From a virus, in the IMG/VR virus record IMGVR_UViG_3300037294_000176, positions 7,399 to 71,398 of that record: a stretch of 64,000 bases of DNA. One strand, 5' to 3'. A program made the position numbers and the translations under genes. Under the pieces are notes generated by a model. That model had not been told where the DNA came from. It saw nothing but the letters and a program-made list of their open reading frames with translations, and did not search any database. Below are positions 6,127-62,454 of the stretch, piece by piece (the first letter of the stretch is position 1; each line of letters starts with the position of its first letter).

Positions 6127-7842
6127 TTGACAACTACAGTAGCTGCCATCCAGTCGCTGATCAATAAGATCAACGCGCTAGTTACGGATCCAACTTTCGT
6201 CAAAGACAATGCCACAATGGTGGCGCTCCTGGCAAATGCCTCGACGCAACTTCAAGGTGGTGCTTCTCTTGAAGGGGAGATTCTAGCAAATATCCAAGTG
6301 ATTTTGGATACCTTTGACGCACAAACTAACACCGCTACTGTCGCACTTAACACCGCTACTGGCAACCAAACTACACTTATCACTGCTGCCCGTGATGCTG
6401 TTGTTGTAGCAAAGGATGCACTCATTGCTGCAACAGAAACTATCAACGGAATCAGTGTTAATACGACGTCTATCAAAACAACCGTAGAAACGTCCGGGGG
6501 ATTTATTACTGAGCTAGCCAGTCGCAAAAGCCCGTTACTAGCAAGACCTTTAGGTTTTCCGTCGCTACAGTTAGTGCCTGAGTCGGCAACCAGTGGTTAC
6601 CAATCTCAAAACTATGTCGCTGCTATCAATCTCTCTATCCTTGACCGACGCACAAGCAAAGTCTGGGCTGGTGGTATTCGCCCAGCTGGTGGAACGAATG
6701 TAAACGAACCTCGGCGCTTTGTATGTTCTTTTGACATTCCAACAAAGCAGTGGACAGTACACCTCGAAGTGTACCAGCCCGGCGCTGCAGTGATGCCAAC
6801 CGTTTTAATGCTTCCTATGGCACGGTCAGCAGCAGACAACACTACGGTTATCGCTAACACGTTCATTAACGATTGGTCAATGAGCGGCAGTTTTGACACC
6901 ATTAGTCCTACCACCATGCTTGTCTCAAATTCTGATAACTCGTTTACCACAGCGACTACAGTAAACTCTACCAACAATCGTCCACAAGTGTTAGGTTACA
7001 TGACTTACGATCGAGTTAACAAGACTTTGGTGTATATTGCCAACACAAGTGGTAATTGGACCATAAGTGGCGCACCCAGCGCAACCAGCCAAGTTCGCGA
7101 GCTGTTTGGGGACGGTACAACGCGCCAAGTTACGGGTAACATCGTGGGTCCGGTAGCCTACATGAACTATGTTCTCACCAATCCTGAACGTTTTTACATT
7201 CTGTCTGCGCCAGACTTGGATACAGCAACTACCTCCCCAGGCCTTAGTGCCCCTCGTAGGCGCACAGCTCTGAAGCACCCAGGCCCAGAAATATTGCAGT
7301 ACCGGCAAGGCTACAATAGTAGCTATGCCCACAACGTTGGCAATGAAGGTTCGTACAAGTTTCTTTACGGCGCTCACCAGCATAATATGCTACTAAATGA
7401 TCCAAGAACCCTTCAGTATACGCTTGGTCATGGGCTTCGTACGCCGCAATGGGTCATAAACGCTGATGGATCCGTTTCATTTCAAACGACATACTACTCA
7501 CCAATCACTGAGACCTACAACCAGCCTAACAGTTCAGCAACTGACAGTAACTCCGGCTTCAATTTAATCAACGATGGCTACGAGTTTGTCACAGTAAACT
7601 CTTTGGAAGACACCGTCCTGGCTGTTGGTAGAGTTAAGCCGCAGTACTCAGAAGCCTTTAAAACAACCTTCGTTCAAAGCCGGCTTGGCATTGGTGCTTA
7701 CTTTCCATGGTGTGTTGATTCGGTAACTAACACTGTTTTCTCATTCTGCGGCGAACGAGCCGCAGTCGTCGACAGTTCGAGCTCTACTACGGGCAATCCC
7801 TGGTGCAATCAGGCTGCCATCTCTGTTCAAAAGCTAGTTTAG
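6127..7842 (+). CDS. putative fibre / receptor-binding protein
   Basis: TTG start after GAGGAGG; N-terminal Ala/Thr coiled coil then a beta-rich Ser/Thr/Asn domain. Confidence 0.6.
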   Translation: MTTTVAAIQSLINKINALVTDPTFVKDNATMVALLANASTQLQGGASLEGEILANIQVILDTFDAQTNTATVALNTATGNQTTLITAARDAVVVAKDALIAATETINGISVNTTSIKTTVETSGGFITELASRKSPLLARPLGFPSLQLVPESATSGYQSQNYVAAINLSILDRRTSKVWAGGIRPAGGTNVNEPRRFVCSFDIPTKQWTVHLEVYQPGAAVMPTVLMLPMARSAADNTTVIANTFINDWSMSGSFDTISPTTMLVSNSDNSFTTATTVNSTNNRPQVLGYMTYDRVNKTLVYIANTSGNWTISGAPSATSQVRELFGDGTTRQVTGNIVGPVAYMNYVLTNPERFYILSAPDLDTATTSPGLSAPRRRTALKHPGPEILQYRQGYNSSYAHNVGNEGSYKFLYGAHQHNMLLNDPRTLQYTLGHGLRTPQWVINADGSVSFQTTYYSPITETYNQPNSSATDSNSGFNLINDGYEFVTVNSLEDTVLAVGRVKPQYSEAFKTTFVQSRLGIGAYFPWCVDSVTNTVFSFCGERAAVVDSSSSTTGNPWCNQAAISVQKLV

Positions 7843-7854: not shown

Positions 7855-8304
7855 ATGATTCTTACTGATGGAGGTCTGGAAGTGAACGGGGCAATTTACC
7901 CCTATCATCCCAGCACGTTTGAGCCGTGGACTCTTGAAACCGCTGAGGAATTTCTCGCGCAAGTACAACTACCGCCAGCGGCAGAACAGGTGGCGATCAT
8001 TGAGCCTGTTCGAGTGTCTAAGGCTCGTTTTGGCGATCTCTTTACAACAGCCGAACATCGAGCAATGAACTTGATTCGTTGGCAAATAACGCAACTTACG
8101 CTAGACGATCGCGTTAACGCAGCAAATCCGCTGCCCGACGTGGAAGTTCTTTTTCAGAAGTTTGACTTACCAGCAGAGTTTATTGAGCTAGATAACGCTT
8201 TGACAGTTCAAGGTATTTCTGTTCTTGGCATGCTCGGTATTTTTGGCGGAAACGCCGTCACGCGGATTGAGGCAATTCTGTCTAATACCCTGCCTGAGGG
8301 CTAA
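7855..8304 (+). CDS. putative fibre assembly chaperone
   Basis: 149 aa, directly after the fibre-like gene; C-terminal TRIEAILS. Confidence 0.5.
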   Translation: MILTDGGLEVNGAIYPYHPSTFEPWTLETAEEFLAQVQLPPAAEQVAIIEPVRVSKARFGDLFTTAEHRAMNLIRWQITQLTLDDRVNAANPLPDVEVLFQKFDLPAEFIELDNALTVQGISVLGMLGIFGGNAVTRIEAILSNTLPEG

Positions 8305-8305
8305 A

Positions 8306-8677
8306 ATGATAACCCATTCAAAGGTAGAGCTAGTACAGCTTAGCAAAAATAGGTTCACACCTTCTGTCCCTATTGTGTATCAGCTAAACGGCTACCCTTT
8401 GACTACTGTCAATCCTGGGTTTGTCACTGACAAGACATCCTGGCCAGCAATTTTAAAAGCGTTGCTAGGCTGGACCCCAAAAGTGAAGCGATGGCTGAAA
8501 GATGAGCGTTATACTCCGGCAGCTATTCTTCACGATGCCCTTCTTGTGGATGGCAGCTTTTCAAAGGCTGAAATTGATTGGCTTTACATGGCAGCATTAA
8601 AAGAGGCTGGTGTTCCCTCATTTGAGGCTCATCTATTCTTTCTTGCTGTAAGATCAAAACGTAACCCAAGGATATAA
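8306..8677 (+). CDS. DUF1353-like protein
   Basis: In-frame ATG at 8306; PGFVTDxxSxP...YxxAAILHDxL...ID..Y..AL motif. Confidence 0.75.
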   Translation: MITHSKVELVQLSKNRFTPSVPIVYQLNGYPLTTVNPGFVTDKTSWPAILKALLGWTPKVKRWLKDERYTPAAILHDALLVDGSFSKAEIDWLYMAALKEAGVPSFEAHLFFLAVRSKRNPRI

Positions 8678-8678
8678 A

Positions 8679-8900
8679 ATGGACCTCCCTAAGTTAGATA
8701 GCAACGAGGAAACTATTGTTGACTCTCCTCCAGTAGTTTCGTCATCCGTAGACGTTGGGACGAGCGTATTTGAAAATTGCGTACCAGCCAACTGGAATAT
8801 CTCTGAAATTGAAGACGGTATTGTCTCTGCGGTCAACAACGTCTCTGGTGAAACATTCCAGGGCAATCTCTCGGACTTCAACAAAGCGCTGAGAGGCTAA
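8679..8900 (+). CDS. hypothetical protein
   Basis: 73 aa, tightly packed between neighbouring genes. Confidence 0.6.
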   Translation: MDLPKLDSNEETIVDSPPVVSSSVDVGTSVFENCVPANWNISEIEDGIVSAVNNVSGETFQGNLSDFNKALRG

Positions 8901-8903
8901 TAG

Positions 8904-10466
8904 ATGACTGTCGTTAACGCTGCTACAGCGTCAGTCAAGACAGTATCAGACCCTAACGCCGTCTACGAGACCCTTAAACCTCTGTGGCTCAAGAGTCGTG
9001 CTGCTTGCAGTGGTGAGCGGTTCGTTAAGGACTATGATGCCGCAATAGACGTTATTAATTTTAAAAACTTACTTATTCCCTTCTCGCCTTCAATGAGCGA
9101 TAACCAGTATAAGTTTTACAAAGCTGAAGCAGAATGGCCTGGGATCACTGCTCAGTACTCTAAAATGCTTGTAGGTGGTCTTCTCAGGAAGCCTCCTCAA
9201 CTCACTCTCCCAGAAGGTGCTCCTGCTAACGCGAAAAACTGGATTTTATCCGAGTTCGGTAGAGACGATAGCTCGCTAATTTCTTTTCTAGAAGACGCGC
9301 TTGTAGAAGAAATTCAAACAAGTGGGCCTTGGATATTTGTTGACCATCCAAAGGTTGATAATGCAGACGCACTTAGCACTGAAGAACGAGAGGCTTTAAA
9401 GCCGTACCCTATTCTTCAACCAGCAGAATCGGTTATCAACTGGCGCTTCAGTGATAAAAAGTTTGGCAAATCAGTCTTAGACCGTGTTATTGTCAGAGGC
9501 CTCAGGGAGTCTTACACTAAGAATGAGTTCCACCCTACAATGTATGATGTGGCTAACGTTCACGAGTTAAACGAAGCGGGCCACTACCAGATACGAGTTT
9601 TTGAGCGTGTGTCCCCAATTACAAACTTGCCTGTGGTTGCGGGAAAGACTCAACAAGTTATTAATGATAATTCAGAATTTGTCTACAAAGAGACAATTGA
9701 GTTTCTTGTAAACGACAAGCCCCTCACATACATTCCCGCATGGCCTGTCAACGGTGCAATTGCGCCCACTGAGCCTATTCTTAGTGCGCTTATCGACAAA
9801 GAAGTTGCGCTGTACAATAAGATGAGTCGTCGTAACCACCTCATGTACGGCGCTGCGACATACACCCCTGTAATCTCGTCTAATATGGATGACGAGGCGT
9901 TTCAGACGGTCGTTAACAGCGGTCTTGGCAGTTGGCTACACCTCCAAAACGGAGACACAGCAACTGTACTCCCTACTCCAAGTGAACCCCTTGAGGATAT
10001 GGAAAAGACCATTGCCGCCTCAATTGAAGAGATGGCTAAGCTAGGTATCAGAATGCTATCACCAGAAACGGCTCAGTCTGGTGTCGCGCTAGAGTTACGT
10101 AATGCGTCCCAAACCGCGCAGCTAGGTACGCTCAATACTCGTATTAGCGAGGTGATGACTCAAATCATCACGTTCATGTTGAATTGGCGATACGACTTAA
10201 AGCTTAACCCTACTGAAGTTACCTTTGCCCTGTCTTCTGACTTTAATTCGACACCGCTTGGTGCAGACTGGCTCAGATTGGCTACTGAGTGGTATGAAGG
10301 AGGTCTCATTCCTCGTTCTGTATGGCTTACTATGCTGAAAATGAACGACATGATTCCACCCGACTACGACGATAAGCGAGGTCAAGAAGAAATTACGGCT
10401 GACGAGACTATTCAGCCTAAACGTGACCTAGACTACAACCCTAAACCTCCTGTAGAGCCTGAGTAA
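8904..10466 (+). CDS. portal protein (DUF4055-like)
   Basis: 520 aa; size and position ahead of the minor head/scaffold/capsid genes; YKFYKAEAEW, ETAQSGVALELR segments. Confidence 0.85.
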   Translation: MTVVNAATASVKTVSDPNAVYETLKPLWLKSRAACSGERFVKDYDAAIDVINFKNLLIPFSPSMSDNQYKFYKAEAEWPGITAQYSKMLVGGLLRKPPQLTLPEGAPANAKNWILSEFGRDDSSLISFLEDALVEEIQTSGPWIFVDHPKVDNADALSTEEREALKPYPILQPAESVINWRFSDKKFGKSVLDRVIVRGLRESYTKNEFHPTMYDVANVHELNEAGHYQIRVFERVSPITNLPVVAGKTQQVINDNSEFVYKETIEFLVNDKPLTYIPAWPVNGAIAPTEPILSALIDKEVALYNKMSRRNHLMYGAATYTPVISSNMDDEAFQTVVNSGLGSWLHLQNGDTATVLPTPSEPLEDMEKTIAASIEEMAKLGIRMLSPETAQSGVALELRNASQTAQLGTLNTRISEVMTQIITFMLNWRYDLKLNPTEVTFALSSDFNSTPLGADWLRLATEWYEGGLIPRSVWLTMLKMNDMIPPDYDDKRGQEEITADETIQPKRDLDYNPKPPVEPE

Positions 10467-10474
10467 GGAGTACC

Positions 10475-13400
10475 ATGGCTGTCAATGCTAATACTGAAAT
10501 TTATGACAACATAGTTAATAGAGCGGCTATGATCCGGCTCTATGAAAGACGTGTCAATGGTAAAGTAGATCTTGTGCTTGACGGCCACAGAGTTCGCCTA
10601 GATACCCTGGTTAAAGAAGCTAACATGTCCCCTAGAGGACTGGCTAGACTTCGGGAAGCTGTAGATCAAGAATTAGTGAAGACTTACAAGGAGGCGTTCT
10701 TTGCCTCTAAGCAGTCTTTGCTTTCTCTTGCTGCAGACCAGGTATCTTTTGCTTATCAAACTCTAGAGACGTCTGTTGGAGAAATCTGGCGCACAAAACG
10801 ACCTACTAGACGCGTTGCAGAGGAGCTAGTCCTAGAAAGACCCCTATTCAATGATATGACTCTTGAGCAGGGCTGGTCTGGGATCAGCAAATCTGAAAGA
10901 ATTCGTATTGAAATTATGATCCGGAAGGGAATAGCAAGTGGTGACAGTCCTGAAAAACTAGCCTTGGCTATTCGCAAAGGAAACATTCATAACATCTCTA
11001 GGAATAGCTCTCAAGGGCTCGTGGTTACAGCCATTACAAGTGTAACAACTCAGGCTGACCACGCGGTTTACGAGAGCAACGAGAAGGCCCTGCAGGGCTG
11101 GCAGTATGTAGCCGTCCTGGACAGCAGGACCACGCCTGTCTGCGTTCACCGTGACGGCCATATCTATGTGATCGGCGAGCGCCGGTACCTCCCACCGGCC
11201 CACTTTAGGTGTCGTTCTACTACGCTCCCTGTTTTTAAATCCTGGGAAGATATTTCTAAACTAGAGGGTGTGGCTGAAGTACGTCGTAGAAACTTAGAAA
11301 GGCTTACTGATAAGCAGAAAGCTTTCTACGATGGTCAAACACCTATGAAGGAAAGTTACGACACTTGGCTAAGACGTCAGTCAACTGTTGTACAAACAAG
11401 ACACTTAGGTGACTATCAAAAAGTCCAGCTGTTTAATTCTGGGGCACTGACTGTTGATAAATTTACGAACGCAGAAGGTAACTCTATAGGTATTCGTCAA
11501 CTTCGTGCAATGACGGACTCCGGCTACGTGATTCCCAATGACACTCGTAAGTTTGCAGCAGCAAAACAGAAGTTAGACAGTATGCAGCTTGGAGCCTCTA
11601 GTCCAGAGGACTTTTATAATAATCCAAAGCTCAAGAAGACGTTAGTTGATTACTACATTCTTCAAGCAGGTGAGCTAGACGGTACTCTAGCTCTGACAAA
11701 CTACCGAGGCACGTTGATACCATCTAAATCGGCAGTAAAAAAGCGCGTCCTGACTTCTCCCCCAAGAGATGATCAACTTGTTTTTAACCCACATACAGGG
11801 CGATACGAAGATGTTAGACTCTACCAACCGAATCCAGCAGTCCTTGAAAACAACCTCAAGCGCGTTAGAACAAGTGAGGCACTTAGAAAAGAGGACAGAG
11901 ACTTCATTGAAGATATCTCAAACACTCTTTCTTCAAAGATGTCTATTAACCAGCGTGCAGTGGTTGTTGATAATCTTCGGATTATATTCACTCGGGCGAG
12001 GTCTGATGGAAAGCCTTGGAATAATTTTAAGGCCGTAGTTCAGGCTCAATTAAAGTTTGACATTATGAATACGTCAGACTACATTGAGACACAGCTTAGA
12101 CGCAACACGGATGTGCTAAAAAAGCTACTTCAGGATAACTACGTCGACCCCGTGCTAGGTACAGTGCAGCTCGATGATCTAAGTAAGAATTTTGTTAAAA
12201 ACATTCGTGAGAGAAACAGATGGGAAGACGCTGTTGCGCCTAAAATTGCCAGAGAGCTTCGGCCTCTTATCAGTAGTGAACTGCCTCTTGTTATTAGCGC
12301 TAGGCTTTCTAATGCTGATCTGCACCAATTTTACCTTAGGTTCGCACATCGACTGGCTCTTAATGACGGGCCAGATAGGGACCAATTGGCTGTTGCCCTA
12401 GGGCGCGATCTCTACAACCTTGCAAATCTTAACGGGAGCCGTACCCAGTGGTATGAAACCGGTCTTAAAATTCTGAGCAGCAAAAAGGTAGAGAAGTTCT
12501 ACAAGGTTGAAACTTTTGGCGTTCAAAAACGCCGAATGAAGAGCCAACTGAGTGGTAGCTATTTTGGACCTTACTACGACACTTTGGCCTACAATATACG
12601 TGTCACAGACCCTCGTATCCAGCGCTATTCAAAGCTTTCTAGAAGTGTTGATCTGGGTTTACGTGTAGGTGTTATTCAAAAAGATAATCGATTGATCTTT
12701 AGACAGGGTTTTAAAACCTACTTCATCGATCGAGGGGTTCTTGGACTAGAGGATACAAGAATACCTATTACCTCTACCAACTCGTTTTCGGATTTTCCAG
12801 AAGAGCTTGTTGATAAGGATTTAGTGGATGCCTTGACTTGGGCGTCCGCCTCAGAATATCGCATTGATGAGGATTACTATGACTTTGTTAAGAAATTACT
12901 CTATTTTGAAGATGATAAAGGCTCTGCAAAGTTTTACAATGATGCTAACGAATATCGTAAGTATATTGCTTCTCGTGGTGATGCTTACGAGCGATTCAAA
13001 GCTATGGACTGGCTTCGAGTTTCAAATCGCGCCTTTTCTAATCACGCCTTTGTTGATCATCGCGCTCGTATCTATGAACGTGGCCTCATTGGCCCTCAGG
13101 CAGGTGAAACTTTCCGACCCTTCTTAAACACTGTAACTAGTAAAAAGTTTGATCCCGAGGGTTTTAAAAACTATGAAGATCAGATTGGATCGTTCTTAGG
13201 TGGCCTTGACGACTACTTTGAGGGTAGAAACAGCTCGTTGACAATAACGGGGCGTCAAAAAATTGCAGAACGACTCCGACCTGAACTGGTGAAGATTGGC
13301 AACCACATGTTACGTGGCAAACCAGCTGACATCAGAGCAGTGTTAGAGTCCCCTGTTGCATCACGTATTCATGGCGAAGAGCTAGGAAAGTTTTACCGGT

Positions 13401-15103
13401 TTGCTATCGAGTCTGCTAAGATTGACACCTACTTAAAGGGTGACTACTCTAGACGGTCTTTAGAGCGGCTACGAGACTATGACATAAGTCTTGCCCTTGA
13501 GCAGGATGCATCGTCGTCTGGTGCTCAAATTATTGCGTTAACCACACGTAATAAGCAGCTTGCTGAACTAAGCAATGTTGTACCTACAACTCAAAAGCGT
13601 CGTCTCTATGATGAGATTGCAGCGTCTACTTACAATGATCCTCGCTTCAGAAAACTTAACGAGAGGCTTGGTCTTACAGAGATTGATCTGCGTAAGGCAG
13701 CTAAGGCGCAGAACATGGTAACATTTTATGGCGCTGGTGAGAAAACTGGAATACTGAGCGTTGAAGGTAAACTAGCTAAGATCTTGTCCAAAGACGGCAA
13801 CACGTTAGTCGTAAAGGCTAGCGACCGAGACATTGTTTTGAACGACATCGATGCAAGAATTGCGCGTGTAGCTAGGTTCGATAAAGAAGGTGCGGAAGAG
13901 CTGAAGGCCCTCAGACAAAACGTTCGAGACATCTTTAACAAAGGACTTGATCCTGGGGACGACATCATGGAAGAACTATACTTCTTAGACCCCAAAACTA
14001 AAGACTTAGTCAACAAGATGAGCCAAAACTACGAAAGAGTCGTTACACCAGACGACTTCAAACTTATAGCTAGGATCATGAGCGAACAACTTGCTGAGCA
14101 AGTCCCTATTCTCAAAGACTTTACAAAGTTTTTTGGCAGACTCGCTGAAGCTTACTTGTTAAATGCTAAACCAGCTAAAGCTGACTTTGACTGGTTGTCT
14201 ATAGGTAAGACGGCAGTCCTTGGCAGTAAGCGAAAAGGCTATACGTTGCCTAAAGAGGCGAGTGAGCTGTTAGGTATTAAGTCTAATGAACCACTGTCTG
14301 AAAAGCTTTTAAAACGACTTGCTTTTTGGAACCCTAAAGGTAACCTACGAGACATCATTTATGGCGTTGACAGTCCTGCTGCTAGACGTACAGGCGGTAA
14401 ATACTTTAAAGTTGAATTCTTAGACCTTGTCAAGCTTAACGAGATTGAAATCTTCTACGCTAACAAGCTTCCGAAATCTTGGACAACTGTACCCTGGGTA
14501 AACTTCGATGGAAAAACAATTGAACAACGTTTCACACAATCTTTCGAGGAAAGACTTAGCTACAAAGATGTTAACGGTAACTATGTTAACAATATCCTTC
14601 AAGTGTCTCAGAAGACCGAGGCGACTTGGTGGGAACAGGTTATCAATAAAGATGGCAAGATCAATGACATTGCGGATGCAACTAAAGCCCGTACCGCGTA
14701 TGCCGTTAATGGAAACCACTCAAACGATGCTACCCTAGTCAAACAGTTTCATCTCTATGGCAAGGCTACTAATGTTCAAACTTCCACTATTCACGACGCC
14801 TTTTTCACTAATGCTGCTGACATGCTTGAGTCACGTAAGGCATTACGAAAAATCTACGCTCGTTCGCTTGAGGCTGAGTCAATCAAGAAGACCCTTGATG
14901 AGATGCGTGCAAGAGGCTTACCCGAGGAAATTTATAAAAAGTTTCTCGAAGAAGCTATTGTTTCAGGACTAATTCCTGTTGCAGGTAAGTCAAGAGTCGG
15001 TGGAAGACTTCTAACCAAAGATGATATACTGACCGTTGAAGAAATTTTAAGGGAAGTTCCTACAGGTTTCCGAGATGATTATGGTTGGTATGGTGTTGGC
15101 TAA
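10475..15103 (+). CDS. MuF/SPP1-gp7 minor head domain fused to T7-like single-subunit RNA polymerase (putative virion RNAP)
   Basis: N-terminal WQYVAVLDSRTTPVC...PPAHFRCRS (MuF); C-terminal DHRARIY, motif A DASSSGAQ, motif B RKAAKAQNMVTFYG, NGNHSNDA, motif C IHDAF. Confidence 0.9.
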   Translation: MAVNANTEIYDNIVNRAAMIRLYERRVNGKVDLVLDGHRVRLDTLVKEANMSPRGLARLREAVDQELVKTYKEAFFASKQSLLSLAADQVSFAYQTLETSVGEIWRTKRPTRRVAEELVLERPLFNDMTLEQGWSGISKSERIRIEIMIRKGIASGDSPEKLALAIRKGNIHNISRNSSQGLVVTAITSVTTQADHAVYESNEKALQGWQYVAVLDSRTTPVCVHRDGHIYVIGERRYLPPAHFRCRSTTLPVFKSWEDISKLEGVAEVRRRNLERLTDKQKAFYDGQTPMKESYDTWLRRQSTVVQTRHLGDYQKVQLFNSGALTVDKFTNAEGNSIGIRQLRAMTDSGYVIPNDTRKFAAAKQKLDSMQLGASSPEDFYNNPKLKKTLVDYYILQAGELDGTLALTNYRGTLIPSKSAVKKRVLTSPPRDDQLVFNPHTGRYEDVRLYQPNPAVLENNLKRVRTSEALRKEDRDFIEDISNTLSSKMSINQRAVVVDNLRIIFTRARSDGKPWNNFKAVVQAQLKFDIMNTSDYIETQLRRNTDVLKKLLQDNYVDPVLGTVQLDDLSKNFVKNIRERNRWEDAVAPKIARELRPLISSELPLVISARLSNADLHQFYLRFAHRLALNDGPDRDQLAVALGRDLYNLANLNGSRTQWYETGLKILSSKKVEKFYKVETFGVQKRRMKSQLSGSYFGPYYDTLAYNIRVTDPRIQRYSKLSRSVDLGLRVGVIQKDNRLIFRQGFKTYFIDRGVLGLEDTRIPITSTNSFSDFPEELVDKDLVDALTWASASEYRIDEDYYDFVKKLLYFEDDKGSAKFYNDANEYRKYIASRGDAYERFKAMDWLRVSNRAFSNHAFVDHRARIYERGLIGPQAGETFRPFLNTVTSKKFDPEGFKNYEDQIGSFLGGLDDYFEGRNSSLTITGRQKIAERLRPELVKIGNHMLRGKPADIRAVLESPVASRIHGEELGKFYRFAIESAKIDTYLKGDYSRRSLERLRDYDISLALEQDASSSGAQIIALTTRNKQLAELSNVVPTTQKRRLYDEIAASTYNDPRFRKLNERLGLTEIDLRKAAKAQNMVTFYGAGEKTGILSVEGKLAKILSKDGNTLVVKASDRDIVLNDIDARIARVARFDKEGAEELKALRQNVRDIFNKGLDPGDDIMEELYFLDPKTKDLVNKMSQNYERVVTPDDFKLIARIMSEQLAEQVPILKDFTKFFGRLAEAYLLNAKPAKADFDWLSIGKTAVLGSKRKGYTLPKEASELLGIKSNEPLSEKLLKRLAFWNPKGNLRDIIYGVDSPAARRTGGKYFKVEFLDLVKLNEIEIFYANKLPKSWTTVPWVNFDGKTIEQRFTQSFEERLSYKDVNGNYVNNILQVSQKTEATWWEQVINKDGKINDIADATKARTAYAVNGNHSNDATLVKQFHLYGKATNVQTSTIHDAFFTNAADMLESRKALRKIYARSLEAESIKKTLDEMRARGLPEEIYKKFLEEAIVSGLIPVAGKSRVGGRLLTKDDILTVEEILREVPTGFRDDYGWYGVG

Positions 15104-15109
15104 AACGTG

Positions 15110-15127
15110 ACCCCGTTAAATTAACCC
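15110..15127 (+). promoter_or_regulatory. motif A (CCCGTTRAMTTAACCC) copy 1, putative phage-RNAP promoter upstream of scaffold/capsid
   Basis: accccgttaaattaaccc; recurs intergenically at 39064, 46842 and 61633. Confidence 0.7.
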
Positions 15128-15130
15128 AGG

Positions 15131-15215
15131 AGCGGTAGTGGGTAGTTGTACTATTCACTCCGCTTTTGATTTACATTACGAGATTGTATCTCTTATCACC
15201 TACTAGGCTGTGCCT
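15131..15215 (+). promoter_or_regulatory. structured leader with three UGU-triloop hairpins before the scaffold RBS
   Basis: GGTAGT-TGT-ACTATT (extended by AGCGG/CCGCT), GAGAT-TGT-ATCTC, AGGC-TGT-GCCT. Confidence 0.6.
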
Positions 15216-15229
15216 GAAGGAATCAAAAT

Positions 15230-15934
15230 ATGTCTACCGACCTCGAATTGACCGCTGAAGAACAGACCAACATCGATGCTGGCTTGAACAAAAACGGTAC
15301 GCCTAAAGAACCAAGGACGATCCTTACTGAAGAAGAAAAGATCGAAGCTGCAGTAGCCGCTCGTGTCGCTAAAGCTAAAGAGAGCTTAGACAAAGCGTTT
15401 GCTGAACGTGACGATGCCCGCAAGCAAGTAGCTGCCTTCGAAGAGAAAGAAAGACAAGCTGAACTCAAACGTTTGGAAGAAGCTGGTGAATACCAGAAAG
15501 CCGCCCAACTACGTGTTGATGCCGCTGAAGCAAAAGCTGCTGAGATTCAAGCACGCTTAGACGCTTCGGAGGCTAGGACTGTTGAACTTACTCGCGATAA
15601 TTCTCTACGTGCTGCAATGTCCACTTACACTTTCCGCTCAGAGAAGGCTCACAGAATGGCCTTTGACGATATCGTTGAACAACTGGTCAAAGATAAGGAT
15701 AACAACTGGGTTCATAAATCTTCTATTAGTATCGAAGCTGCCGTCAAGGCTTTCGCTGATGACGAAGCTAACTCCTTCTTGTTCAAGGCTAAGACCTCAT
15801 CCGGGTCCGGTGACACAGCTGTGAAAAAGACAGATGTCGAGAAGAAACCTACTTCTCTGTTCCAAATGTCTCAAGCTGATGTTCTTGCTGCCGCTGCGAA
15901 GGGCTCTCTTAGGAAAGAGAGACGCCCTCGTTAA
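15230..15934 (+). CDS. capsid scaffolding protein
   Basis: Charged coiled coil, SFLFK..SSGSG C-terminal motif, located before the capsid gene. Confidence 0.85.
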   Translation: MSTDLELTAEEQTNIDAGLNKNGTPKEPRTILTEEEKIEAAVAARVAKAKESLDKAFAERDDARKQVAAFEEKERQAELKRLEEAGEYQKAAQLRVDAAEAKAAEIQARLDASEARTVELTRDNSLRAAMSTYTFRSEKAHRMAFDDIVEQLVKDKDNNWVHKSSISIEAAVKAFADDEANSFLFKAKTSSGSGDTAVKKTDVEKKPTSLFQMSQADVLAAAAKGSLRKERRPR

Positions 15935-15950
15935 ATTTAAAGGAATATGA

Positions 15951-17138
15951 ATGACTGTTATTACTGACCTGCCGGGCGCAACTAACGACGTCCTGCAGAG
16001 CGCTCTCTCGGGTTACTCCGATGAAGCGTACACGAATGCTCGTAAACTTTCGGGTACTGGGATTGTTGGTTCCAACCCTGACATTGACGTCAACACCGAA
16101 ACCTATATTGGTCAGGTCCGTTGGCACAAGCCTCTGAACCCTGTCGTCAACGTTGCCTCGCTGACAAACTCCGCAGATGGTGCGCGTACTGGTTACGCCT
16201 CCGACTACCTGCGTTACGTCAAGAGTGTCCGTACGCACGGTGCAGAAAAAGTTAACATGGCGCAGGTTGTTACCCGCGTTGATGGACTAGCTAAAATCGG
16301 TCGTGACTTTGGTGAAACCAAGGCTCAAGACGAACACGACGCTATCCTGTCGGTTCTCAAAGGCGTTGCTGTCTCTGAGGCCCTGGCTGGTGGTGCTCAA
16401 GGCACCGGCCAAGTCGGTCTTGGTGGCCAAACGTTTGATAACGATCCAACGAACAAGCGTCATGGTTTCTACGTTGACCTCGGTGTTGACAAAACCGTAG
16501 TTGGAGCCACGGCTTCGGTTCAGGGCGCTGCTCGTGCTGAGTCGTTCCTCCGTGCCTTTGGCATGGCCTACAAGGATTACGAGCCCTCGTTCGCGTACCT
16601 TGTTACGTCGCCTGAGACCATGGCCTCGCTGCGTTCGGCTAACCTGGTTGACCAGGATCGTGTTGTTGACGGTACGGTTGAATTCCAGACGATCTTTGAC
16701 GGCAAGTTCCGTTTGGTCTCGACTCGTGCAAACCAGTCAATGTCTTCTGCTGATCTGGCTAAAGTTAACAGCGGACCCGGTGTTGATATTGTTGGTACCA
16801 AGACTTCCTTCATTGTGCTTCCAGGCGCGCTGGCAATGGAAGGTCTTGAAGTTCCAATGGAGACTGAGATTGAACGTGATGCTGCCTCCTTCATGGGTGG
16901 TGGTACGACTGAAATCTGGTACCGTTGGGGTTACGTTATTGCACCCGCTGGTTACGACTGGCAGGGTAGTGAGCAAGAGTTTGCTTCAAACGGCGCTTAC
17001 ATGGGTGTCAATAACGCTGCTACCGACGATAACACGACGCTGGCTGCTGCTGGTCTCATCACTGACATCCGTGGTAACTGGAAGCGTAAGACTGCCTCGG
17101 CTCTGTCGCTTGGCATTCTGCCTATCTTCCACGGCTAA
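15951..17138 (+). CDS. major capsid protein
   Basis: 395 aa, AAGGA RBS, strongly biased codons, follows the scaffold gene. Confidence 0.85.
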   Translation: MTVITDLPGATNDVLQSALSGYSDEAYTNARKLSGTGIVGSNPDIDVNTETYIGQVRWHKPLNPVVNVASLTNSADGARTGYASDYLRYVKSVRTHGAEKVNMAQVVTRVDGLAKIGRDFGETKAQDEHDAILSVLKGVAVSEALAGGAQGTGQVGLGGQTFDNDPTNKRHGFYVDLGVDKTVVGATASVQGAARAESFLRAFGMAYKDYEPSFAYLVTSPETMASLRSANLVDQDRVVDGTVEFQTIFDGKFRLVSTRANQSMSSADLAKVNSGPGVDIVGTKTSFIVLPGALAMEGLEVPMETEIERDAASFMGGGTTEIWYRWGYVIAPAGYDWQGSEQEFASNGAYMGVNNAATDDNTTLAAAGLITDIRGNWKRKTASALSLGILPIFHG

Positions 17139-17148
17139 GAAAATAATT

Positions 17149-17628
17149 ATGGCTTTAGCTAAAACTGTTAACTGCTATGTTACGGTATCTGAAGCTGATA
17201 CTTATTTCGAGGATCGTTTAGATGTGGCCGCTTGGTTCGATGCGCCTCCCGAAGAAAGAGCTAAAGCACTAGTCACAGCTACGGCTAGACTTGATGCTCT
17301 CAACTGGACAGGTTACGCTTCAAGCTCGGCACAACCTCTTGCTTTCCCTCGTATTGGTGAATATTTGGACCCTCGGTTAGGAAGACTTGTTAGCTTCAGT
17401 GCTAATGGGTTTCCTGATCGAGTGGTCAAAGCTACTTATGAGCTTGCATATCATTTTCTGAACAATGACGGTCTAATGGACCAGACTGGTAGTGTAACTA
17501 ACCTTGCTCTTGCCGGAATCTCCTTGACTGAAATTAGAGCAACGCCCGAGATACCTTCTGTTGTTATGCGTCTCGTTCGGCCTATGTTGGTCAACGCCGG
17601 TGCTAACAGCTGGTGGAGGGCAAACTAG
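17149..17628 (+). CDS. head-tail connector/adaptor
   Basis: ATG at 17149; NCYVTVSEADTYF...AL..AT..LD...Q.LAFPR pattern. Confidence 0.8.
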   Translation: MALAKTVNCYVTVSEADTYFEDRLDVAAWFDAPPEERAKALVTATARLDALNWTGYASSSAQPLAFPRIGEYLDPRLGRLVSFSANGFPDRVVKATYELAYHFLNNDGLMDQTGSVTNLALAGISLTEIRATPEIPSVVMRLVRPMLVNAGANSWWRAN

Positions 17629-17981
17629 TGAGTTACAATTCCTTAATCGATTCTCAGCTTAAAAGAGCGTTTAACTTGCTTAAGGACTTAGCTGTAGATG
17701 CAACCTTCCAAAAGAAGAATGTAACAGGCTTTGATTTTAACACTAGTACGGCAACTTTGGCAGTAGCCCCTGATGTAGTTACAAAAATAGTTATTACAGG
17801 TGAGCTAAAGAAAACCAAAGAGTCTAAAGTCATTACTAAGACGATTATGTGTAAGTCCAAGGATATGGGTTCACTTAATTCTTATTCGACAGTTGTCATT
17901 GATGGTGTCGTCTGGAGATTAGGCGACCCTATCAAAGATAGCGGTTACATTCTAGTCACTACTATGATTAAGGAGGTCTGA
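17628..17981 (+). CDS. head closure/stopper-like protein
   Basis: GTG start overlapping the previous stop (TAGTG) after GGAGG; position in the neck module. Confidence 0.65.
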   Translation: MSYNSLIDSQLKRAFNLLKDLAVDATFQKKNVTGFDFNTSTATLAVAPDVVTKIVITGELKKTKESKVITKTIMCKSKDMGSLNSYSTVVIDGVVWRLGDPIKDSGYILVTTMIKEV

Positions 17982-18388
17982 TGGGAAAGTATACAAAGGT
18001 CGAAAGATCAGTGTTTTCTATCTTCGGTCAGAACTCCTGGAAAAACGAGAGCATTAACACGTGGCCCGCTGATTTCGTACCTGATACGGCTGGAGCGGAA
18101 TATGTACGTGTTAACATTATTTCAAACGGTGCTGGTTTAAATAAGACGTCAGTATCTGGTATTCTCATCATAGACATATTTACAGCTGCAGGTAGTGGAC
18201 CAACGCGCCAAAACTTTATTGCAGACAAGTTAGACGGCTACTTAGAGAACAAATCTATTCCTACCCTAGCAGGTGTTACACAGTTGCAAAACAGTGCTTT
18301 ACGACCTCTTGGGCTGGATAAGGCAAACACTAACCTTAGTCGTGCTAGCTATGAAATACCTTTTCACTTTTACGGAGTGACCATTTAA
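17981..18388 (+). CDS. tail terminator-like protein
   Basis: GILIIDIFTAAGSG...IADKLD pattern; precedes the tail tube gene. Confidence 0.7.
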   Translation: MGKYTKVERSVFSIFGQNSWKNESINTWPADFVPDTAGAEYVRVNIISNGAGLNKTSVSGILIIDIFTAAGSGPTRQNFIADKLDGYLENKSIPTLAGVTQLQNSALRPLGLDKANTNLSRASYEIPFHFYGVTI

Positions 18389-18987: not shown

Positions 18988-18995
18988 GTAAAATG

Positions 18996-19030
18996 AGAGG
19001 GAGGTTACGTAGACTAGCCTCCCTCTTTTC
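18996..19030 (+). terminator. intrinsic terminator after the tail tube gene
   Basis: AGAGGGAGGTTA...TAGCCTCCCTCT followed by TTT. Confidence 0.75.
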
Positions 19031-19283: not shown

Positions 19284-19286
19284 TAC

Positions 19287-39063: not shown

Positions 39064-39081
39064 ACCCCGTTGACTTAACCC
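39064..39081 (+). promoter_or_regulatory. motif A copy 2, upstream of the lysis genes
   Basis: accccgttgacttaaccc. Confidence 0.7.
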
Positions 39082-43250: not shown

Positions 43251-43255
43251 CCACA

Positions 43256-43332
43256 CGACCTGAACATGTCGCTAAACTGTTTTCACATGAAGTTTAAAAC
43301 CCCTCCGACCTGAACATGTCGTTAAACTGTTC
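43256..43332 (+). ncRNA. H-type pseudoknot repeat copies 2 and 3 (43256-43282, 43306-43332)
   Basis: CGAC-CT-GAACA-T-GTCG-YTAAAC-TGTTY in tandem. Confidence 0.7.
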
Positions 43333-43563: not shown

Positions 43564-45816
43564 ATGAAAGCAGCGTTACGAGACTCTTTTATAGAAAGGC
43601 TGCACAAGGAGCTTGCCCCTCAAAACCCTGTAGTGTACTTGAAAAAATTTGCTGTAGAAGAATATCTTGACATTGTGATATCGATTGTCTACTTGTATAC
43701 ACGCCCTAAACGTGGTACAACAAAAACAACGATATACATGGCTGAGGTGATATCCGCAATAGGTCACGCTGTTCGAACAAAACTGCGTCAGAAGAAAGAC
43801 TCCGGTCTTGCAGCAAAAAGTGGAGCTTTCCTTCTATACACGTTTGAGCAGTTTGGGTTAATTCAAATTGTGCTCGGTCAAGGCTCTAAAGGCCACGCAG
43901 CGTACATAGTCCAAGTCTTAGATGACGATCTTATCTGCGAGCTATGGTCTAACGTTGACCCTAGCAAAGTTGAAAAATTACCCTCTACCACTCCTTACGA
44001 GCCCTGGACAAGCACCCGTCATTTTACTGGTGCGGGTCTGATCAAGACAAATAATCGAGACGTGCTAGAAGCTGTGAAACCTGAAACGCATCCTATTGTG
44101 TTTGACTGTGTAAACAAAGCGCAAACTCAAGGTTGGCAAGTCAACGAAGAACTCTATCGAATTCACTTGTGGGCTCTTCGTAATAAGACAGACGCGTTTG
44201 CAGACATCTGGGAACAACAGAACGCAGAGGCAAGAATCACTAAACTCCGAGAGGCAAAAGCAATCGGGGATATTGCAAGAAGATTCTTAGGAAAGACCTT
44301 TTACCACCTTTACTATTTTGACTTCAGAGGTCGTAAGTATCCTACAACAGCCTACCTCCACGAGCAAGGTTCAGACCTAGCAAGAGGTCTTCTTCTTCGT
44401 TCTGATAAAAAGTCAATTGGGCAACCAGGTTTCTTCTGGTTGTTAGTGTCAATTGCTTCTAACTGGGCTGGAGATGCAGGTAGAGAAGACGGGCTAAAGA
44501 CAGACAAAATCCCTTTAGCCGACAGATTTCTTTGGGCGATGGACAACGAAGAAATTCTCCTTGACTACGCTGCAAATCCTAAAGTCTCTCAAGGCTGGAT
44601 GAAAGCAGACAAGCCCTGGCAGTTTCTTGCAGCTTGTCTAGAACTCAAGAATCTACGTGAGTGGCAGTTCACCTACGGAGATAGGACAGAGAATATCTTT
44701 GAAGACTATTCTTACGAGTCTCATCTGGAAGCTTACATTGATGGTTCCAATAACGGTAGTCAACACCTGTCTGCTTTGACTAAGGACGAAATCACTGCTC
44801 CGCACGTAAACCTTGTACCTCAAGATCTTCCTGGTGACCTTTACAGGTACGTAGCCGATCACGTCTGGTTGCGCCTTGAAGAGCAAATGGCTGAGTTAGG
44901 ACAAGAAGCGATTGAAGACTGTAACAAGTTTATCGACACGTTGATAGACTTGAAACGTCAGATCATGGCTGCTCAGCCCAAAAGTGAGATACGAGAGCGA
45001 CTAGTAGAGCAGATTAAAGCGTTCAAGGACAATAACAGTGAAGTTGCTTCAATCGCAGGTCCCGTTTACTGGCTTAGAATTAGAGATCAGAAACACCGTC
45101 GCAAGATCGTGAAGCGCAATGTTATGACATTGCCGTATGGTGGCACTGCGTATGGCCTAGGGCAGCAACAGATTGACGATGCTAAGAAGCATGGCATTGA
45201 TCAACTGATGTATTTAGAACACAAGTGGGGCTCATTCCTCGGTCGAGAGATATTCGATGACTGTAGAATATCGTTAGCTAGACCAATGCGACTGCTTACT
45301 GTGTTTGAAAGTGCAGGCAAGCGTGCAGAACAGCGTGGAGAGTTCCTAAAATGGACTGTCCCTATTACTAACTTTCCTGTGGTTCAACACTATACAGAAG
45401 GTGTAGTGAAAAAGCTGTGGATTCAGTACGGGCCTCCAAAGGGCGATCGTAAAAGTACAGGCTACTACGAGAACACTTTACAGTTAGCAATCTGCTTTAT
45501 TGAAACAGTGGTCCCGTCTAAGAACAAGCAAGCCCAAGGTGCAAGCCCTAACGCTATTCACAGCCTTGATGCTGGACATTTAGCAATTGCAGTTCACAGA
45601 TCTGACTTCTCCGTTACAACCATCCATGACTCTTTTGGTTGTCTTCTTGCCGATATGCCTGAGCTCTTTATTAAAGTTCGTGAGACGTTTGTTGAGTTGT
45701 ACTCAGCTGATCCTCTCACTTCCCTAATGAAAGATATTGATGGTGATATCAGTCTTGTTGAGATTGGCAATCTTGACGTAACCCTGGTGCTCGAATCCGA
45801 GTACTGTTTCGCATAG
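43564..45816 (+). CDS. T7-like single-subunit DNA-dependent RNA polymerase
   Basis: FDFRGRKY, KPWQFLA, motif A DGSNNGSQH, motif B RKIVKRNVMTLPYG, SPNAIHSLDA, motif C IHDSFG. Confidence 0.96.
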   Translation: MKAALRDSFIERLHKELAPQNPVVYLKKFAVEEYLDIVISIVYLYTRPKRGTTKTTIYMAEVISAIGHAVRTKLRQKKDSGLAAKSGAFLLYTFEQFGLIQIVLGQGSKGHAAYIVQVLDDDLICELWSNVDPSKVEKLPSTTPYEPWTSTRHFTGAGLIKTNNRDVLEAVKPETHPIVFDCVNKAQTQGWQVNEELYRIHLWALRNKTDAFADIWEQQNAEARITKLREAKAIGDIARRFLGKTFYHLYYFDFRGRKYPTTAYLHEQGSDLARGLLLRSDKKSIGQPGFFWLLVSIASNWAGDAGREDGLKTDKIPLADRFLWAMDNEEILLDYAANPKVSQGWMKADKPWQFLAACLELKNLREWQFTYGDRTENIFEDYSYESHLEAYIDGSNNGSQHLSALTKDEITAPHVNLVPQDLPGDLYRYVADHVWLRLEEQMAELGQEAIEDCNKFIDTLIDLKRQIMAAQPKSEIRERLVEQIKAFKDNNSEVASIAGPVYWLRIRDQKHRRKIVKRNVMTLPYGGTAYGLGQQQIDDAKKHGIDQLMYLEHKWGSFLGREIFDDCRISLARPMRLLTVFESAGKRAEQRGEFLKWTVPITNFPVVQHYTEGVVKKLWIQYGPPKGDRKSTGYYENTLQLAICFIETVVPSKNKQAQGASPNAIHSLDAGHLAIAVHRSDFSVTTIHDSFGCLLADMPELFIKVRETFVELYSADPLTSLMKDIDGDISLVEIGNLDVTLVLESEYCFA

Positions 45817-46841: not shown

Positions 46842-46859
46842 ACCCCGTTAACTTAACCC
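46842..46859 (+). promoter_or_regulatory. motif A copy 3, upstream of SSB/replication block
   Basis: accccgttaacttaaccc. Confidence 0.7.
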
Positions 46860-61632: not shown

Positions 61633-61650
61633 AACCCGTTAACTTAACCC
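61633..61650 (+). promoter_or_regulatory. motif A copy 4
   Basis: aacccgttaacttaaccc. Confidence 0.7.
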
Positions 61651-62359: not shown

Positions 62360-62454
62360 GGTATCACTTGTGATGCCGCCTCGTAAGAGGTATGACCTAG
62401 GCAAGTCGTTAAAGGAGCCTGTTCGTCCGACCTGAGCATGTCACAAAACTGCTC
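62360..62454 (+). ncRNA. structured intergenic RNA: two hairpins plus pseudoknot copies 4 (62393-62420) and 5 (62429-62454)
   Basis: GGTATCAC/GTGATGCC; GCCTC-GTAA-GAGGT; GAC-CT-AGGC..GTC..GCCT; GAC-CT-GAGCA-T-GTC-ACAAAAC-TGCTC. Confidence 0.65.

What the first reader, a model, noticed from the sequence alone, without database searches (positions are those of the whole stretch)
10475..15103. MuF (SPP1 gp7-type) minor head protein fused to a complete T7-like RNA polymerase: a candidate virion-delivered RNAP
Seen: one uninterrupted 1542-aa ORF in the minor-head slot between portal and scaffold. It carries MuF motifs (WQYVAVLDSRTT at ~11099, HFRCRS at ~11201) and all single-subunit RNAP catalytic motifs (DASSSGAQ ~13505, RKAAKAQNMVTFYG ~13691, NGNHSNDA ~14708, IHDAF ~14789), with both catalytic Asp residues intact. 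Established: SPP1 gp7 binds portal and DNA, MuF domains carry toxin cargo in MuF polymorphic toxins, and N4 injects a virion RNAP. Inference: this phage uses MuF as a packaging and delivery tag for an RNAP injected with the genome, an architecture distinct from N4 vRNAP. I know of no experimental characterisation, though homologues may exist in databases.
Basis: partly seen in the sequence, partly recalled or inferred. Interest (0 to 1): 0.92.

Follow-up and report, generated by a model that had tools for sequence, protein, structure and literature searches.

The report
Head-anchor protein fused to RNA polymerase
A long-tailed environmental phage joins its only portal-associated minor head protein (MuF) to a complete, apparently active T7-type RNA polymerase, so it probably carries its own transcription enzyme inside the capsid, a design for which I found no published description.

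Summary
Pfam scores both Phage_Mu_F and RNA_pol above their curated cut-offs. An AlphaFold model of residues 343-1542 superposes on T7 RNAP residues 34-883 (Z 25.6), well above N4 mini-vRNAP (Z 14.9). The catalytic residues are invariant in relatives down to about 20% identity.

The RNAP clade appears only as this fusion. All 27 full-length representatives found with the RNAP part alone carry MuF. The phage has no other MuF, and it has a second, free 750-aa T7-like RNAP. The cultured dU-DNA roseophage DSS3_VP1 has the same pair.

Two promoter-like motif classes exist. A 16-mer conserved across the clade heads five modules. A local 17-mer lies twice upstream of the free RNAP gene.

Nine literature searches found no description.

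This scan had already noted the same architecture on at least seven other genomes. I rate it a new variant of known kinds (virion RNAPs; MuF-cargo fusions), interest 0.76.

The parts
10475..15103 (+). MuF-RNAP fusion gene, 1542 aa, with stop codon
10475..11509 (+). MuF / SPP1 gp7-type head-morphogenesis domain, about aa 1-345 (Pfam core aa 145-250 = nt 10907-11224). Invariant T185, T188, N202, L215, D216, T219, C223, P240, P241, H243, C246, R247, S248, P252
   Evidence: N-terminal model pLDDT 84.6
11507..11545 (+). Low-confidence linker, about aa 345-357, between MuF and the next domain
   Evidence: pLDDT below 50 at model residues 349-356 and 1-14 of the 343-1542 model
11543..12163 (+). Helical domain of unknown function, about aa 357-563, lying before the start of nearly all RNAP superpositions
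   Evidence: no PDB Foldseek match at E <= 0.001 for the 1-600 model
12164..15100 (+). Complete T7-type single-subunit RNAP module, about aa 564-1542
   Evidence: VIA-align 1s76_D Z 25.6, rmsd 3.0 over 518 residues, model 223-1200 = T7 34-883; Foldseek E 1.5e-18
13049..13075 (+). FVDHRARIY: counterpart of the T/DxxGR motif; R865 invariant
   Evidence: motif name recalled
13505..13528 (+). Motif A DASSSGAQ; D1011 invariant
13691..13732 (+). Motif B RKAAKAQNMVTFYG; K1077, Y1085 and G1086 invariant
14708..14731 (+). NGNHSNDA; D1418 invariant
14789..14803 (+). Motif C IHDAF; D1441 invariant
8904..10466 (+). Portal gene directly upstream
   Evidence: synteny in relatives
15230..17138 (+). Scaffold (15230-15934) and major head protein (15951-17138) directly downstream
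   Evidence: synteny
15112..15127 (+). Class A promoter-like 16-mer CCCGTTAAATTAACCC, 9 nt after the fusion stop
   Evidence: at most 2 mismatches in 36 of 45 relatives at the same place
39066..39081 (+). Class A site upstream of the lysis / free-RNAP module
46844..46859 (+). Class A site upstream of the replication module
   Evidence: syntenic sites in relatives
61635..61650 (+). Class A site upstream of the small-gene module that runs off the window end
43564..45816 (+). Second, free-standing T7-like RNAP, 750 aa
   Evidence: PF00940 E 1.3e-62; phrog_414 E 2.3e-108
43255..43321 (+). Two tandem class B 17-mers (43255-43271 and 43305-43321), about 250-300 nt upstream of the free RNAP gene
62427..62443 (+). 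Third class B copy, in an intergenic gap before small genes

Best explanation
The gene encodes a three-part protein. The parts are an N-terminal MuF / SPP1 gp7-type minor head domain (about aa 1-345), a roughly 200-aa helical domain of unknown role, and a complete, catalytically competent T7-type single-subunit RNA polymerase (about aa 564-1542). The proposed mechanism follows; all of its steps are inferred. The protein is made late with the head genes. The MuF domain takes it into the procapsid at the portal, as the phage's only MuF, so a few polymerase copies are sealed in with the DNA. At infection the protein leaves through the portal and tail with the genome. It then transcribes phage DNA before any phage protein is made, which makes the start of infection independent of host RNA polymerase. 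The free 750-aa T7-like RNAP then takes over or amplifies transcription from the conserved CCCGTTAAATTAACCC promoters that head the five gene modules. The sequence and fold identity of both domains, the conservation of the catalytic residues, the obligatory fusion and the second RNAP are shown. Which polymerase reads which promoter is not resolved.
For: 1. Both domains pass Pfam curated cut-offs.
2. The AF2 model of aa 343-1542 has pLDDT 83.2 and pTM 0.80. It matches T7 RNAP 1s76_D at Z 25.6, rmsd 3.0 over 518 residues, covering T7 34-883, and yeast mtRNAP at Z 25.9.
3. R865, D1011, K1077, Y1085, D1418 and D1441 are invariant in alignments reaching about 19-25% identity.
4. A phmmer search of the RNAP part alone against 1.84 billion representatives gave only 156 hits at E <= 0.001. 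All 27 of the 27 listed hits of at least 1264 aa carry Phage_Mu_F.
5. In the 5.8-billion-protein collection, 363 proteins hit at E <= 1e-5. Of the 120 listed, 112 have both PF00940 and PF04233 precomputed.
6. This is the only MuF match in the 71.4-kb genome, which CheckV rates 100% complete.
7. The order portal, fusion, scaffold, MCP is kept in relatives. Scaffold and MCP follow in 42 of 46 loci, and the 4 exceptions are contigs that end there. Portal precedes in 27 of 46, and in the rest the fusion runs off the contig start or fewer than 550 nt precede it.
8. A second free T7-like RNAP is present here. It is also present in 3 of 4 other records searched: two near-complete relatives and the cultured DSS3_VP1. 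The exception is a partial record.
9. The two RNAPs share only motif-level similarity (BLASTP E 0.009), so they are not recent duplicates.
10. There are two motif classes against a chance expectation of about 0.01-0.07 matches. Class B lies twice just upstream of the free RNAP gene.
11. MuF fused to enzymatic cargo that is predicted to be delivered into the host is an established theme (passages of PMC5512222).
Against: No call shows the protein in a virion, its exit from the capsid, or any transcription.

The class A motif heads all five modules. These include the module holding the free RNAP gene and the one holding the fusion gene itself, so a clean early-to-late relay is not visible in the promoters.

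Class B is conserved only in the closest relative: 1 of 47 loci examined. It may be a local repeat rather than a promoter.

As in T7, host RNAP could make the free RNAP, which would leave no need for an injected enzyme.

A protein of about 175 kDa would have to pass unfolded through a very long tail, since the tape measure is 3274 aa.

That SPP1 gp7 leaves the capsid with the DNA is my recollection and was not read here.

The 8 of the 120 listed relatives that carry only PF00940 (879-1302 aa) could be natural unfused forms.
Confidence: 0.55

Rival explanations
1. The enzyme is packaged and ejected, but its main job is mechanical. It transcribes the leading end of the genome to pull the rest of the DNA into the cell, as transcription does for T7 and N4 (recalled). 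Gene expression would be secondary to this.
For: The same evidence that supports packaging applies. The very long tail and 71-kb genome make assisted internalisation plausible. All genes lie on one strand, so transcription would run in a single direction along the DNA.
Against: Nothing here separates pulling from expression. The end that enters first is unknown, because the record has no terminal repeats.
Confidence: 0.15
2. The enzyme is not delivered. The fusion acts inside the producing cell. It might be a late-phase polymerase, or it might couple transcription or priming to head assembly and packaging. The MuF part would serve assembly only, and any packaged copies would be incidental.
For: The gene lies in the late head module, downstream of a class A site at genome 7089, so the protein is presumably made late. 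The class A motif lies 9 nt after its stop and drives scaffold and MCP.
Against: The RNAP clade is found only fused to MuF (27 of 27). The phage already has a free RNAP for intracellular work. A polymerase tied to a protein built into procapsids is poorly placed to act on free DNA.
Confidence: 0.15
3. The injected enzyme acts as a primase. It would make the first RNA primer for replication of the incoming DNA, as T7 and mitochondrial RNAPs can prime (recalled).
For: The fold is closest to the T7 and mitochondrial RNAPs.
Against: The phage encodes its own primase-helicase (phrog_239 E 1e-138). No origin-like element was linked to the motifs.
Confidence: 0.05
4. The RNAP part is a catalytically dead structural or DNA-binding cargo.
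For: None specific. The Pfam RNA_pol score is modest (41.9 bits).
Against: Every catalytic residue checked is invariant across relatives down to about 20% identity. The whole fold, including the C-terminus, is retained.
Confidence: 0.03

Closest known systems
Coliphage N4 virion RNAP gp50 and the N4 polymerase relay (Schitoviridae)
   Same: In both, a T7-superfamily single-subunit RNAP is proposed to ride in the capsid, and the same genome holds a second, phage-encoded T7-like RNAP. N4 biology is recalled; reference titles were seen.
   Different: N4 gp50 is about 3500 aa, has a central polymerase domain and has no MuF (recalled). Here the protein is 1542 aa with an N-terminal MuF, in a long-tailed phage. 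The fold is nearer T7 RNAP (Z 25.6) than N4 mini-vRNAP (Z 14.9). No N4-type hairpin promoter was established.
MuF-cargo fusions / polyvalent proteins (Iyer et al. 2017, PMC5512222) and MuF polymorphic toxins
   Same: MuF serves as an N-terminal virion handle fused to an enzymatic C-terminal domain predicted to be delivered to the host (passages).
   Different: The cargos named in the passages I read are PBECR RNase, 2H phosphoesterase, RelA/SpoT, PRTase and zeta-toxin-like kinase. A T7-type RNAP cargo is not mentioned in them. The figures could not be seen.
SPP1 gp7 / phage Mu gpF minor head proteins
   Same: They share the same Pfam family, the same gene position right after the portal, and the status of sole copy in the genome.
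   Different: The characterised members are about 300-500 aa (recalled) and carry no polymerase.
T7 RNA polymerase
   Same: The full-length fold and motifs A, B and C, with the DxxxR motif, are shared.
   Different: T7 RNAP is free-standing, made early by host RNAP and not a virion protein (recalled). Sequence identity in the superposition is only about 17%.
Virion multisubunit RNAPs of phiKZ-like and dU-DNA phages (AR9/PBS2), and crAss-like gp66
   Same: All follow the concept of a packaged polymerase that starts infection independently of the host. A passage on Chimallinviridae vRNAP was read in PMC12390700. The cultured relative DSS3_VP1 has dU-DNA (PMC8323127).
   Different: Those enzymes are multisubunit or two-barrel (recalled) and are unrelated to the T7 fold found here.

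Membership tests
MuF / SPP1 gp7 head morphogenesis (PF04233) | Profile match above the curated cut-off | tested here: met
   43.3 bits against 29.6, aa 145-250; phrog_241 E 4.4e-57
MuF / SPP1 gp7 head morphogenesis (PF04233) | Gene directly downstream of the portal in the head module | tested here: met
MuF / SPP1 gp7 head morphogenesis (PF04233) | Physical presence in the capsid and association with the portal | not testable with these tools
   Needs virion proteomics or cryo-EM
T7-like single-subunit RNAP (PF00940) | Profile match above the curated cut-off | tested here: met
   41.9 bits against 22
T7-like single-subunit RNAP (PF00940) | Whole-enzyme fold, from the N-terminal domain to the C-terminus | tested here: met
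   Model 223-1200 = T7 34-883, Z 25.6, rmsd 3.0 over 518 residues
T7-like single-subunit RNAP (PF00940) | Catalytic motifs A, B and C and the DxxxR motif, with both Asp residues | tested here: met
   correspondence to T7 residue numbers is recalled
T7-like single-subunit RNAP (PF00940) | Promoter-specific RNA synthesis | not testable with these tools
   Needs an in vitro assay
N4-like virion RNAP (Schitoviridae gp50) | Giant polypeptide of about 3500 aa with a central polymerase domain | tested here: not met
   1542 aa, with the polymerase at the C-terminus and MuF at the N-terminus
N4-like virion RNAP (Schitoviridae gp50) | Polymerase domain closest to N4 mini-vRNAP | tested here: not met
   N4 mini-vRNAP Z 13.6-14.9, against T7 and mitochondrial RNAPs at Z 18-26 (ranks 1-44) in the same list
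N4-like virion RNAP (Schitoviridae gp50) | Hairpin early promoters | tested here: inconclusive
   The class B 17-mer holds only a 4-bp inverted repeat and is conserved in 1 of 47 loci
N4-like virion RNAP (Schitoviridae gp50) | Presence in virions and injection | not testable with these tools
   -
MuF polymorphic toxins (temperate phages) | C-terminal toxin domain | tested here: not met
   The C-terminal domain is an RNAP. An immunity gene was not looked for

The most novel reading that the evidence does not exclude
This would be a third, independently evolved way of carrying transcription into the cell. A T7-type RNA polymerase is covalently tethered to the portal-docked MuF protein and sealed in the head of long-tailed phages. 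It is co-ejected with the DNA, so that a widespread freshwater and marine clade, including the cultured dU-DNA Naomviridae, starts infection without host RNA polymerase. It then hands over to a second phage polymerase acting at five clade-conserved CGTTAAA-core promoters.
Probability: 0.45. Interest if true: 0.85.

Novelty: new variant of a known kind. Interest (0 to 1): 0.76.

Why it matters
If the enzyme is packaged, virion-borne transcription is not confined to N4-like podophages, crAss-like phages and jumbo phages. It would also occur in a large, mostly uncultured siphophage clade, through a simple modular trick: a MuF handle plus a polymerase cargo.

It would explain how the dU-DNA roseophages DSS3_VP1 and DSS3_PM1 start transcription. 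The paper describing them does not mention an RNA polymerase at all (0 occurrences in the main text).

It would give a compact, naturally tethered T7-type polymerase with a defined 16-bp promoter candidate for biochemistry.

It is directly testable, because a cultured member and a tractable host exist.

Tried and rejected
1. Complex prediction of the portal (520 aa, 16-row alignment) with MuF aa 1-350 (33-row alignment) returned 'no answer', score 0.00 against a mark of 0.32. This is no evidence either way.

2. The look-up of sequencing runs, kind rna, on window 14000-17200 listed no RNA holder.

3. Foldseek of the 1-600 model against PDB gave no match at E <= 0.001. The MuF assignment therefore rests on sequence profiles only.

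4. phmmer of the whole protein against PDB sequences gave only a weak hit to an archaeal regulator (1uly_A, E 0.0017, aa 672-808). I treat it as chance.

5. Megablast of window 8000-20000 against the phages collection gave no match.

6. Exact 12-mers repeated at least 3 times in the genome gave nothing promoter-like. The motifs came from a mismatch-tolerant intergenic search.

7. Class B as a conserved early promoter was not upheld. It was found in 1 of 47 relatives' RNAP2 loci at up to 3 mismatches. No tandem repeat lay upstream of RNAP2 in 27 of the 28 relatives checked; the one repeat found (L073) is unrelated in sequence. By eye, most relatives instead show a GC-rich hairpin plus a T-run there.

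8. One class A-like match with 2 mismatches lies on the minus strand inside the lysozyme gene (39919-39934). I treat it as chance or non-functional.

9. Pfam found no intein or homing domain in five insert-bearing or longer relatives.

10. An internal start with a Shine-Dalgarno-like sequence between aa 330 and 720 was not found by a simple script.

11. The dU-DNA idea for this phage is open. There is no ThyA, ThyX or YfbR-like HD hydrolase. There is a dCMP-deaminase-family gene, 30% identical to the DSS3_VP1 one.

12. Literature. Nine searches found no paper describing a MuF-RNAP fusion. PMC5512222, PMC8323127, PMC12697855, PMC12390700 and bioRxiv 10.1101/2025.10.29.685362 were read as passages by 'find' only. 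All other papers were seen as search listings only. The annotation tables of PMC8323127 could bear on whether the authors noted the domain.

Full report
**1. Observation**

The window is positions 7399-71398 of a 71,398-bp IMG/VR virus record that CheckV rates 100% complete. All long ORFs are on the + strand. ORF 10475-15103 (+) is 1542 aa and translates without an internal stop.

Pfam scores Phage_Mu_F (aa 145-250, 43.3 bits, cut-off 29.6) and RNA_pol PF00940 (41.9 bits, cut-off 22) above their curated thresholds. PHROGs gives head morphogenesis phrog_241 over aa 1-346 (E 4.4e-57) and RNA polymerase phrog_414 (E 6.3e-18).

The flanking genes are portal (8904-10466), scaffold (15230-15934) and major head protein (15951-17138).

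**2. Anatomy**

An AlphaFold2 model of aa 343-1542, built on 37 sequences, has mean pLDDT 83.2 and pTM 0.80. Foldseek finds T7 and mitochondrial RNAPs at E about 1e-18.

VIA-align results:

| Chain | Z | Notes |
|---|---|---|
| Yeast mitochondrial RNAP | 25.9 | |
| T7 RNAP 1s76_D | 25.6 | rmsd 3.0 Å over 518 residues; model 223-1200 on T7 residues 34-883 |
| N4 RNAPII | 15.2 | |
| N4 mini-vRNAP | 13.6-14.9 | |

The polymerase module is therefore about aa 564-1542. It is complete from the N-terminal domain to the C-terminus, and it is nearer the T7 and mitochondrial class than N4 vRNAP.

A second model, of aa 1-600 (pLDDT 84.6), shows a low-confidence linker at aa 349-356. It had no PDB match at E <= 0.001. 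The roughly 200-aa helical stretch at aa 357-563 remains unassigned.

In BFVD, one protein stands far above the rest: A0A7S5FRK7, 1463 aa, E 9.6e-69, TM 0.78. From its accession series I infer that it is the DSS3 roseophage homologue. Ordinary free T7-like RNAPs follow at E about 1e-20, and N4-like vRNAPs at 1e-11 or weaker.

**3. Selection on function**

In alignments of 37 and 33 relatives reaching about 19-25% identity, the following are invariant:
- R865 (DxxxR motif)
- D1011 (motif A)
- K1077, Y1085 and G1086 (motif B)
- D1418
- D1441 (motif C)

The MuF core residues T185, T188, N202, L215, D216, T219, C223, P240, P241, H243, C246, R247, S248 and P252 are also invariant. In the most divergent 27-sequence set, D1014 in that alignment's numbering (the motif A Asp) stays invariant, and the other catalytic positions are at least 90% conserved. 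The correspondence to T7 D537, K631, Y639 and D812 is recalled, not computed.

**4. Distribution**

The RNAP part alone (aa 640-1542) found 363 proteins at E <= 1e-5 in the 5.8-billion-protein collection. Of the 120 listed, 112 carry both PF00940 and PF04233. The remaining 8 are shorter (879-1302 aa) and carry PF00940 only.

A filter-free phmmer search of 1.84 billion representatives gave just 156 hits at E <= 0.001, so this polymerase clade is well separated from ordinary T7-like RNAPs. All 27 of the 27 listed hits of at least 1264 aa contain Phage_Mu_F, and 19 of 27 reach PF00940 at E <= 0.001. Shorter hits are mostly fragments. A few begin at the polymerase start (for example P0142 and P0154) and could be either 5'-truncated or free forms.

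In the GenBank phage collection, 969 records hit. Only 4 cover at least 80% of the query:
- EBPR siphovirus 1, at 59% identity. Its gene is split by an HNH endonuclease gene (gp47, gp48, gp49).
- DSS3_VP1, in two records, and DSS3_PM1, at 31.5% identity. They are annotated 'minor head protein-like' or 'head morphogenesis'.

**5. Context**

The genome has one MuF match only. Among 46 related IMG/VR loci, scaffold and MCP follow the fusion in 42, and the other 4 contigs end there. Portal precedes it in 27, and in the rest the fusion runs off the contig start or fewer than 550 nt precede it.

The phage also encodes a free 750-aa T7-like RNAP at 43564-45816 (PF00940 E 1.3e-62; phrog_414 E 2.3e-108). 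The same pair, fused plus free, is present in two near-complete relatives and in DSS3_VP1. The partial EBPR record shows only the fused one. The two enzymes of this phage share only motif-level similarity (best BLASTP E 0.009).

**6. Promoter-like elements: class A**

A mismatch-tolerant search of the intergenic regions found class A, (A/C)CCCGTT(A/G)A(A/C)TTAACCC. It has five + strand intergenic sites in the genome: genome 7089, and window 15112, 39066, 46844 and 61635. Each lies about 30-170 nt upstream of a gene. After them, the position-weight score drops from 37 to below 0, though the matrix was built from these same five sites.

In the window, the 16-mer with up to 2 mismatches has 5 matches against 0.01 expected. 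One of the five is a minus-strand match inside the lysozyme gene.

The five sites head five modules:
- small genes, terminase, portal and the fusion
- scaffold through tail
- lysis and the free RNAP
- replication and nucleotide metabolism
- small genes that run across the record ends

The motif lies within 120 nt after the fusion stop at up to 2 mismatches in 36 of 45 relatives, and it is exact in 26. It recurs at syntenic positions around the free RNAP gene. It occurs exactly 5 times, forward strand only, in each of two near-complete relatives, with a reversed-pattern control of 0.

DSS3_VP1 lacks this 16-mer. It has 10 forward-only copies of TAGG(G/T)T(G/A)CGTTAAAG..., which share the CGTTAAA core, again with a control of 0.

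**7. Promoter-like elements: class B**

Class B is CCGACCTGA(A/G)CATGTC. It has three + strand intergenic copies against 0.07 expected. Two are in tandem at 43255 and 43305, upstream of the free RNAP gene. The third is at 62427, before small genes. It is found in only the closest relative, 1 of 47 loci. Other relatives show, by eye, a hairpin plus a T-run at that place.

Two motif classes and two polymerases fit a relay. However, the assignment of enzyme to motif is open, and class A covers every module.

**8. Mechanism**

The best-supported reading (confidence 0.55) has four steps:
- MuF carries the polymerase into the procapsid at the portal.
- The enzyme is sealed in with the DNA.
- It leaves with the DNA at infection and transcribes incoming DNA.
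- The free RNAP then takes over or amplifies transcription.

The steps that are shown are domain identity, completeness, conservation, obligatory fusion, sole MuF and the second RNAP. The steps that are inferred are packaging, ejection, timing and promoter assignment.

The rivals are transcription-driven DNA entry, an intracellular-only role, priming of replication, and a dead domain. They are set out with their tests in the rival explanations.

**9. Comparison with what is known**

The protein works like the N4 virion RNAP system but is not a member of it. Size, architecture and nearest fold all fail the membership test.

It is a member of the MuF family and of the T7-like RNAP family by profile, and for the RNAP also by fold. 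It fits the MuF-cargo theme of Iyer et al. 2017. The passages I read from that paper list other cargos and do not mention an RNAP.

The paper describing DSS3_VP1 and DSS3_PM1 has no occurrence of 'RNA polymerase', 'RNAP', 'MuF' or 'minor head' in its main text. The later dU-biosynthesis paper has none either. Nine full-text searches found no description. Subscription journals and supplements were not searchable.

**10. Earlier findings of this scan**

A look-up made after I had stated my own reading returned seven reports of the same architecture on other genomes. All were judged 'observation confirmed, first reading partly supported', with N4 as the closest known system. My independent tests agree with them.
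- the 27-of-27 MuF count
- the five-site promoter architecture, its conservation, and the shared CGTTAAA core in DSS3_VP1
- the local class B repeats upstream of the free RNAP gene

**11. Verdict**

The fusion is real, widespread and apparently unpublished. It is a new variant of known kinds (virion RNAPs and MuF-cargo fusions). Virion delivery is plausible but unproven. Interest is 0.76.

Noticed in passing
window 15131-15229; L006-L051 downstream of the fusion stop; L122 10430-10460: The scaffold-gene leader holds small hairpins with TGT loops. The one abutting the ribosome-binding site (GAGTYGTACTC) is present in 40 of 44 relatives with enough flank. The upstream hairpin changes stem sequence between relatives while keeping its pairing, judged by eye. 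DSS3_VP1 has TAAGTTGTACTTA at the same place. This suggests a conserved translational operator.
   Followed up: partly
window 20305-30129: The tape measure protein is 3274 aa (PF20155 TMP_3, E 1.4e-44). By the recalled rule of about 0.15 nm per residue, this implies an unusually long tail of several hundred nm. The next large gene, 31313-38575, encodes a 2420-aa tail protein.
   Followed up: no
window 57785-58222, 47543-48244, 54987-57785: The nucleotide-metabolism set comprises a dCMP-deaminase-family protein (30% identical to the DSS3_VP1 homologue, E 2e-10), a dATP/dGTP diphosphohydrolase N-terminal domain protein, and RNR large and small subunits. The genome has no ThyA, ThyX or YfbR-like HD hydrolase. 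A modified genome (dU or other) is possible but not shown.
   Followed up: partly
L001 11207-12127 (EBPR siphovirus 1); L028, L030, L031, L032, L034, L035, L042, L044, L047: The fusion gene is interrupted in several relatives. In EBPR siphovirus 1 an HNH endonuclease gene lies between two halves. In nine IMG/VR loci the tblastn match comes in 2-3 pieces, and in most of them it spans 0.4-1.7 kb more DNA. Some single ORFs are 1626-1775 aa with no Pfam intein hit. These look like mobile insertions in a conserved gene.
   Followed up: partly
genome 6434-6487 (about 900-960 nt before the window start): There are three tandem copies of an 18-bp unit containing CCTAAAGCGATA. They lie inside or next to a small ORF just upstream of the first class A site. 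Their function is unknown.
   Followed up: no
window 3996-5447 and 6127-7842: Two large ORFs (483 and 571 aa) lie between terminase and portal. Neither has a PHROG match at E <= 1e-4 or 1e-3. This is an unusual insertion in the packaging-head module.
   Followed up: no
window 52472-52957: A SegE-like GIY-YIG homing endonuclease gene lies in the replication module (PF19835, E 7.8e-16).
   Followed up: no
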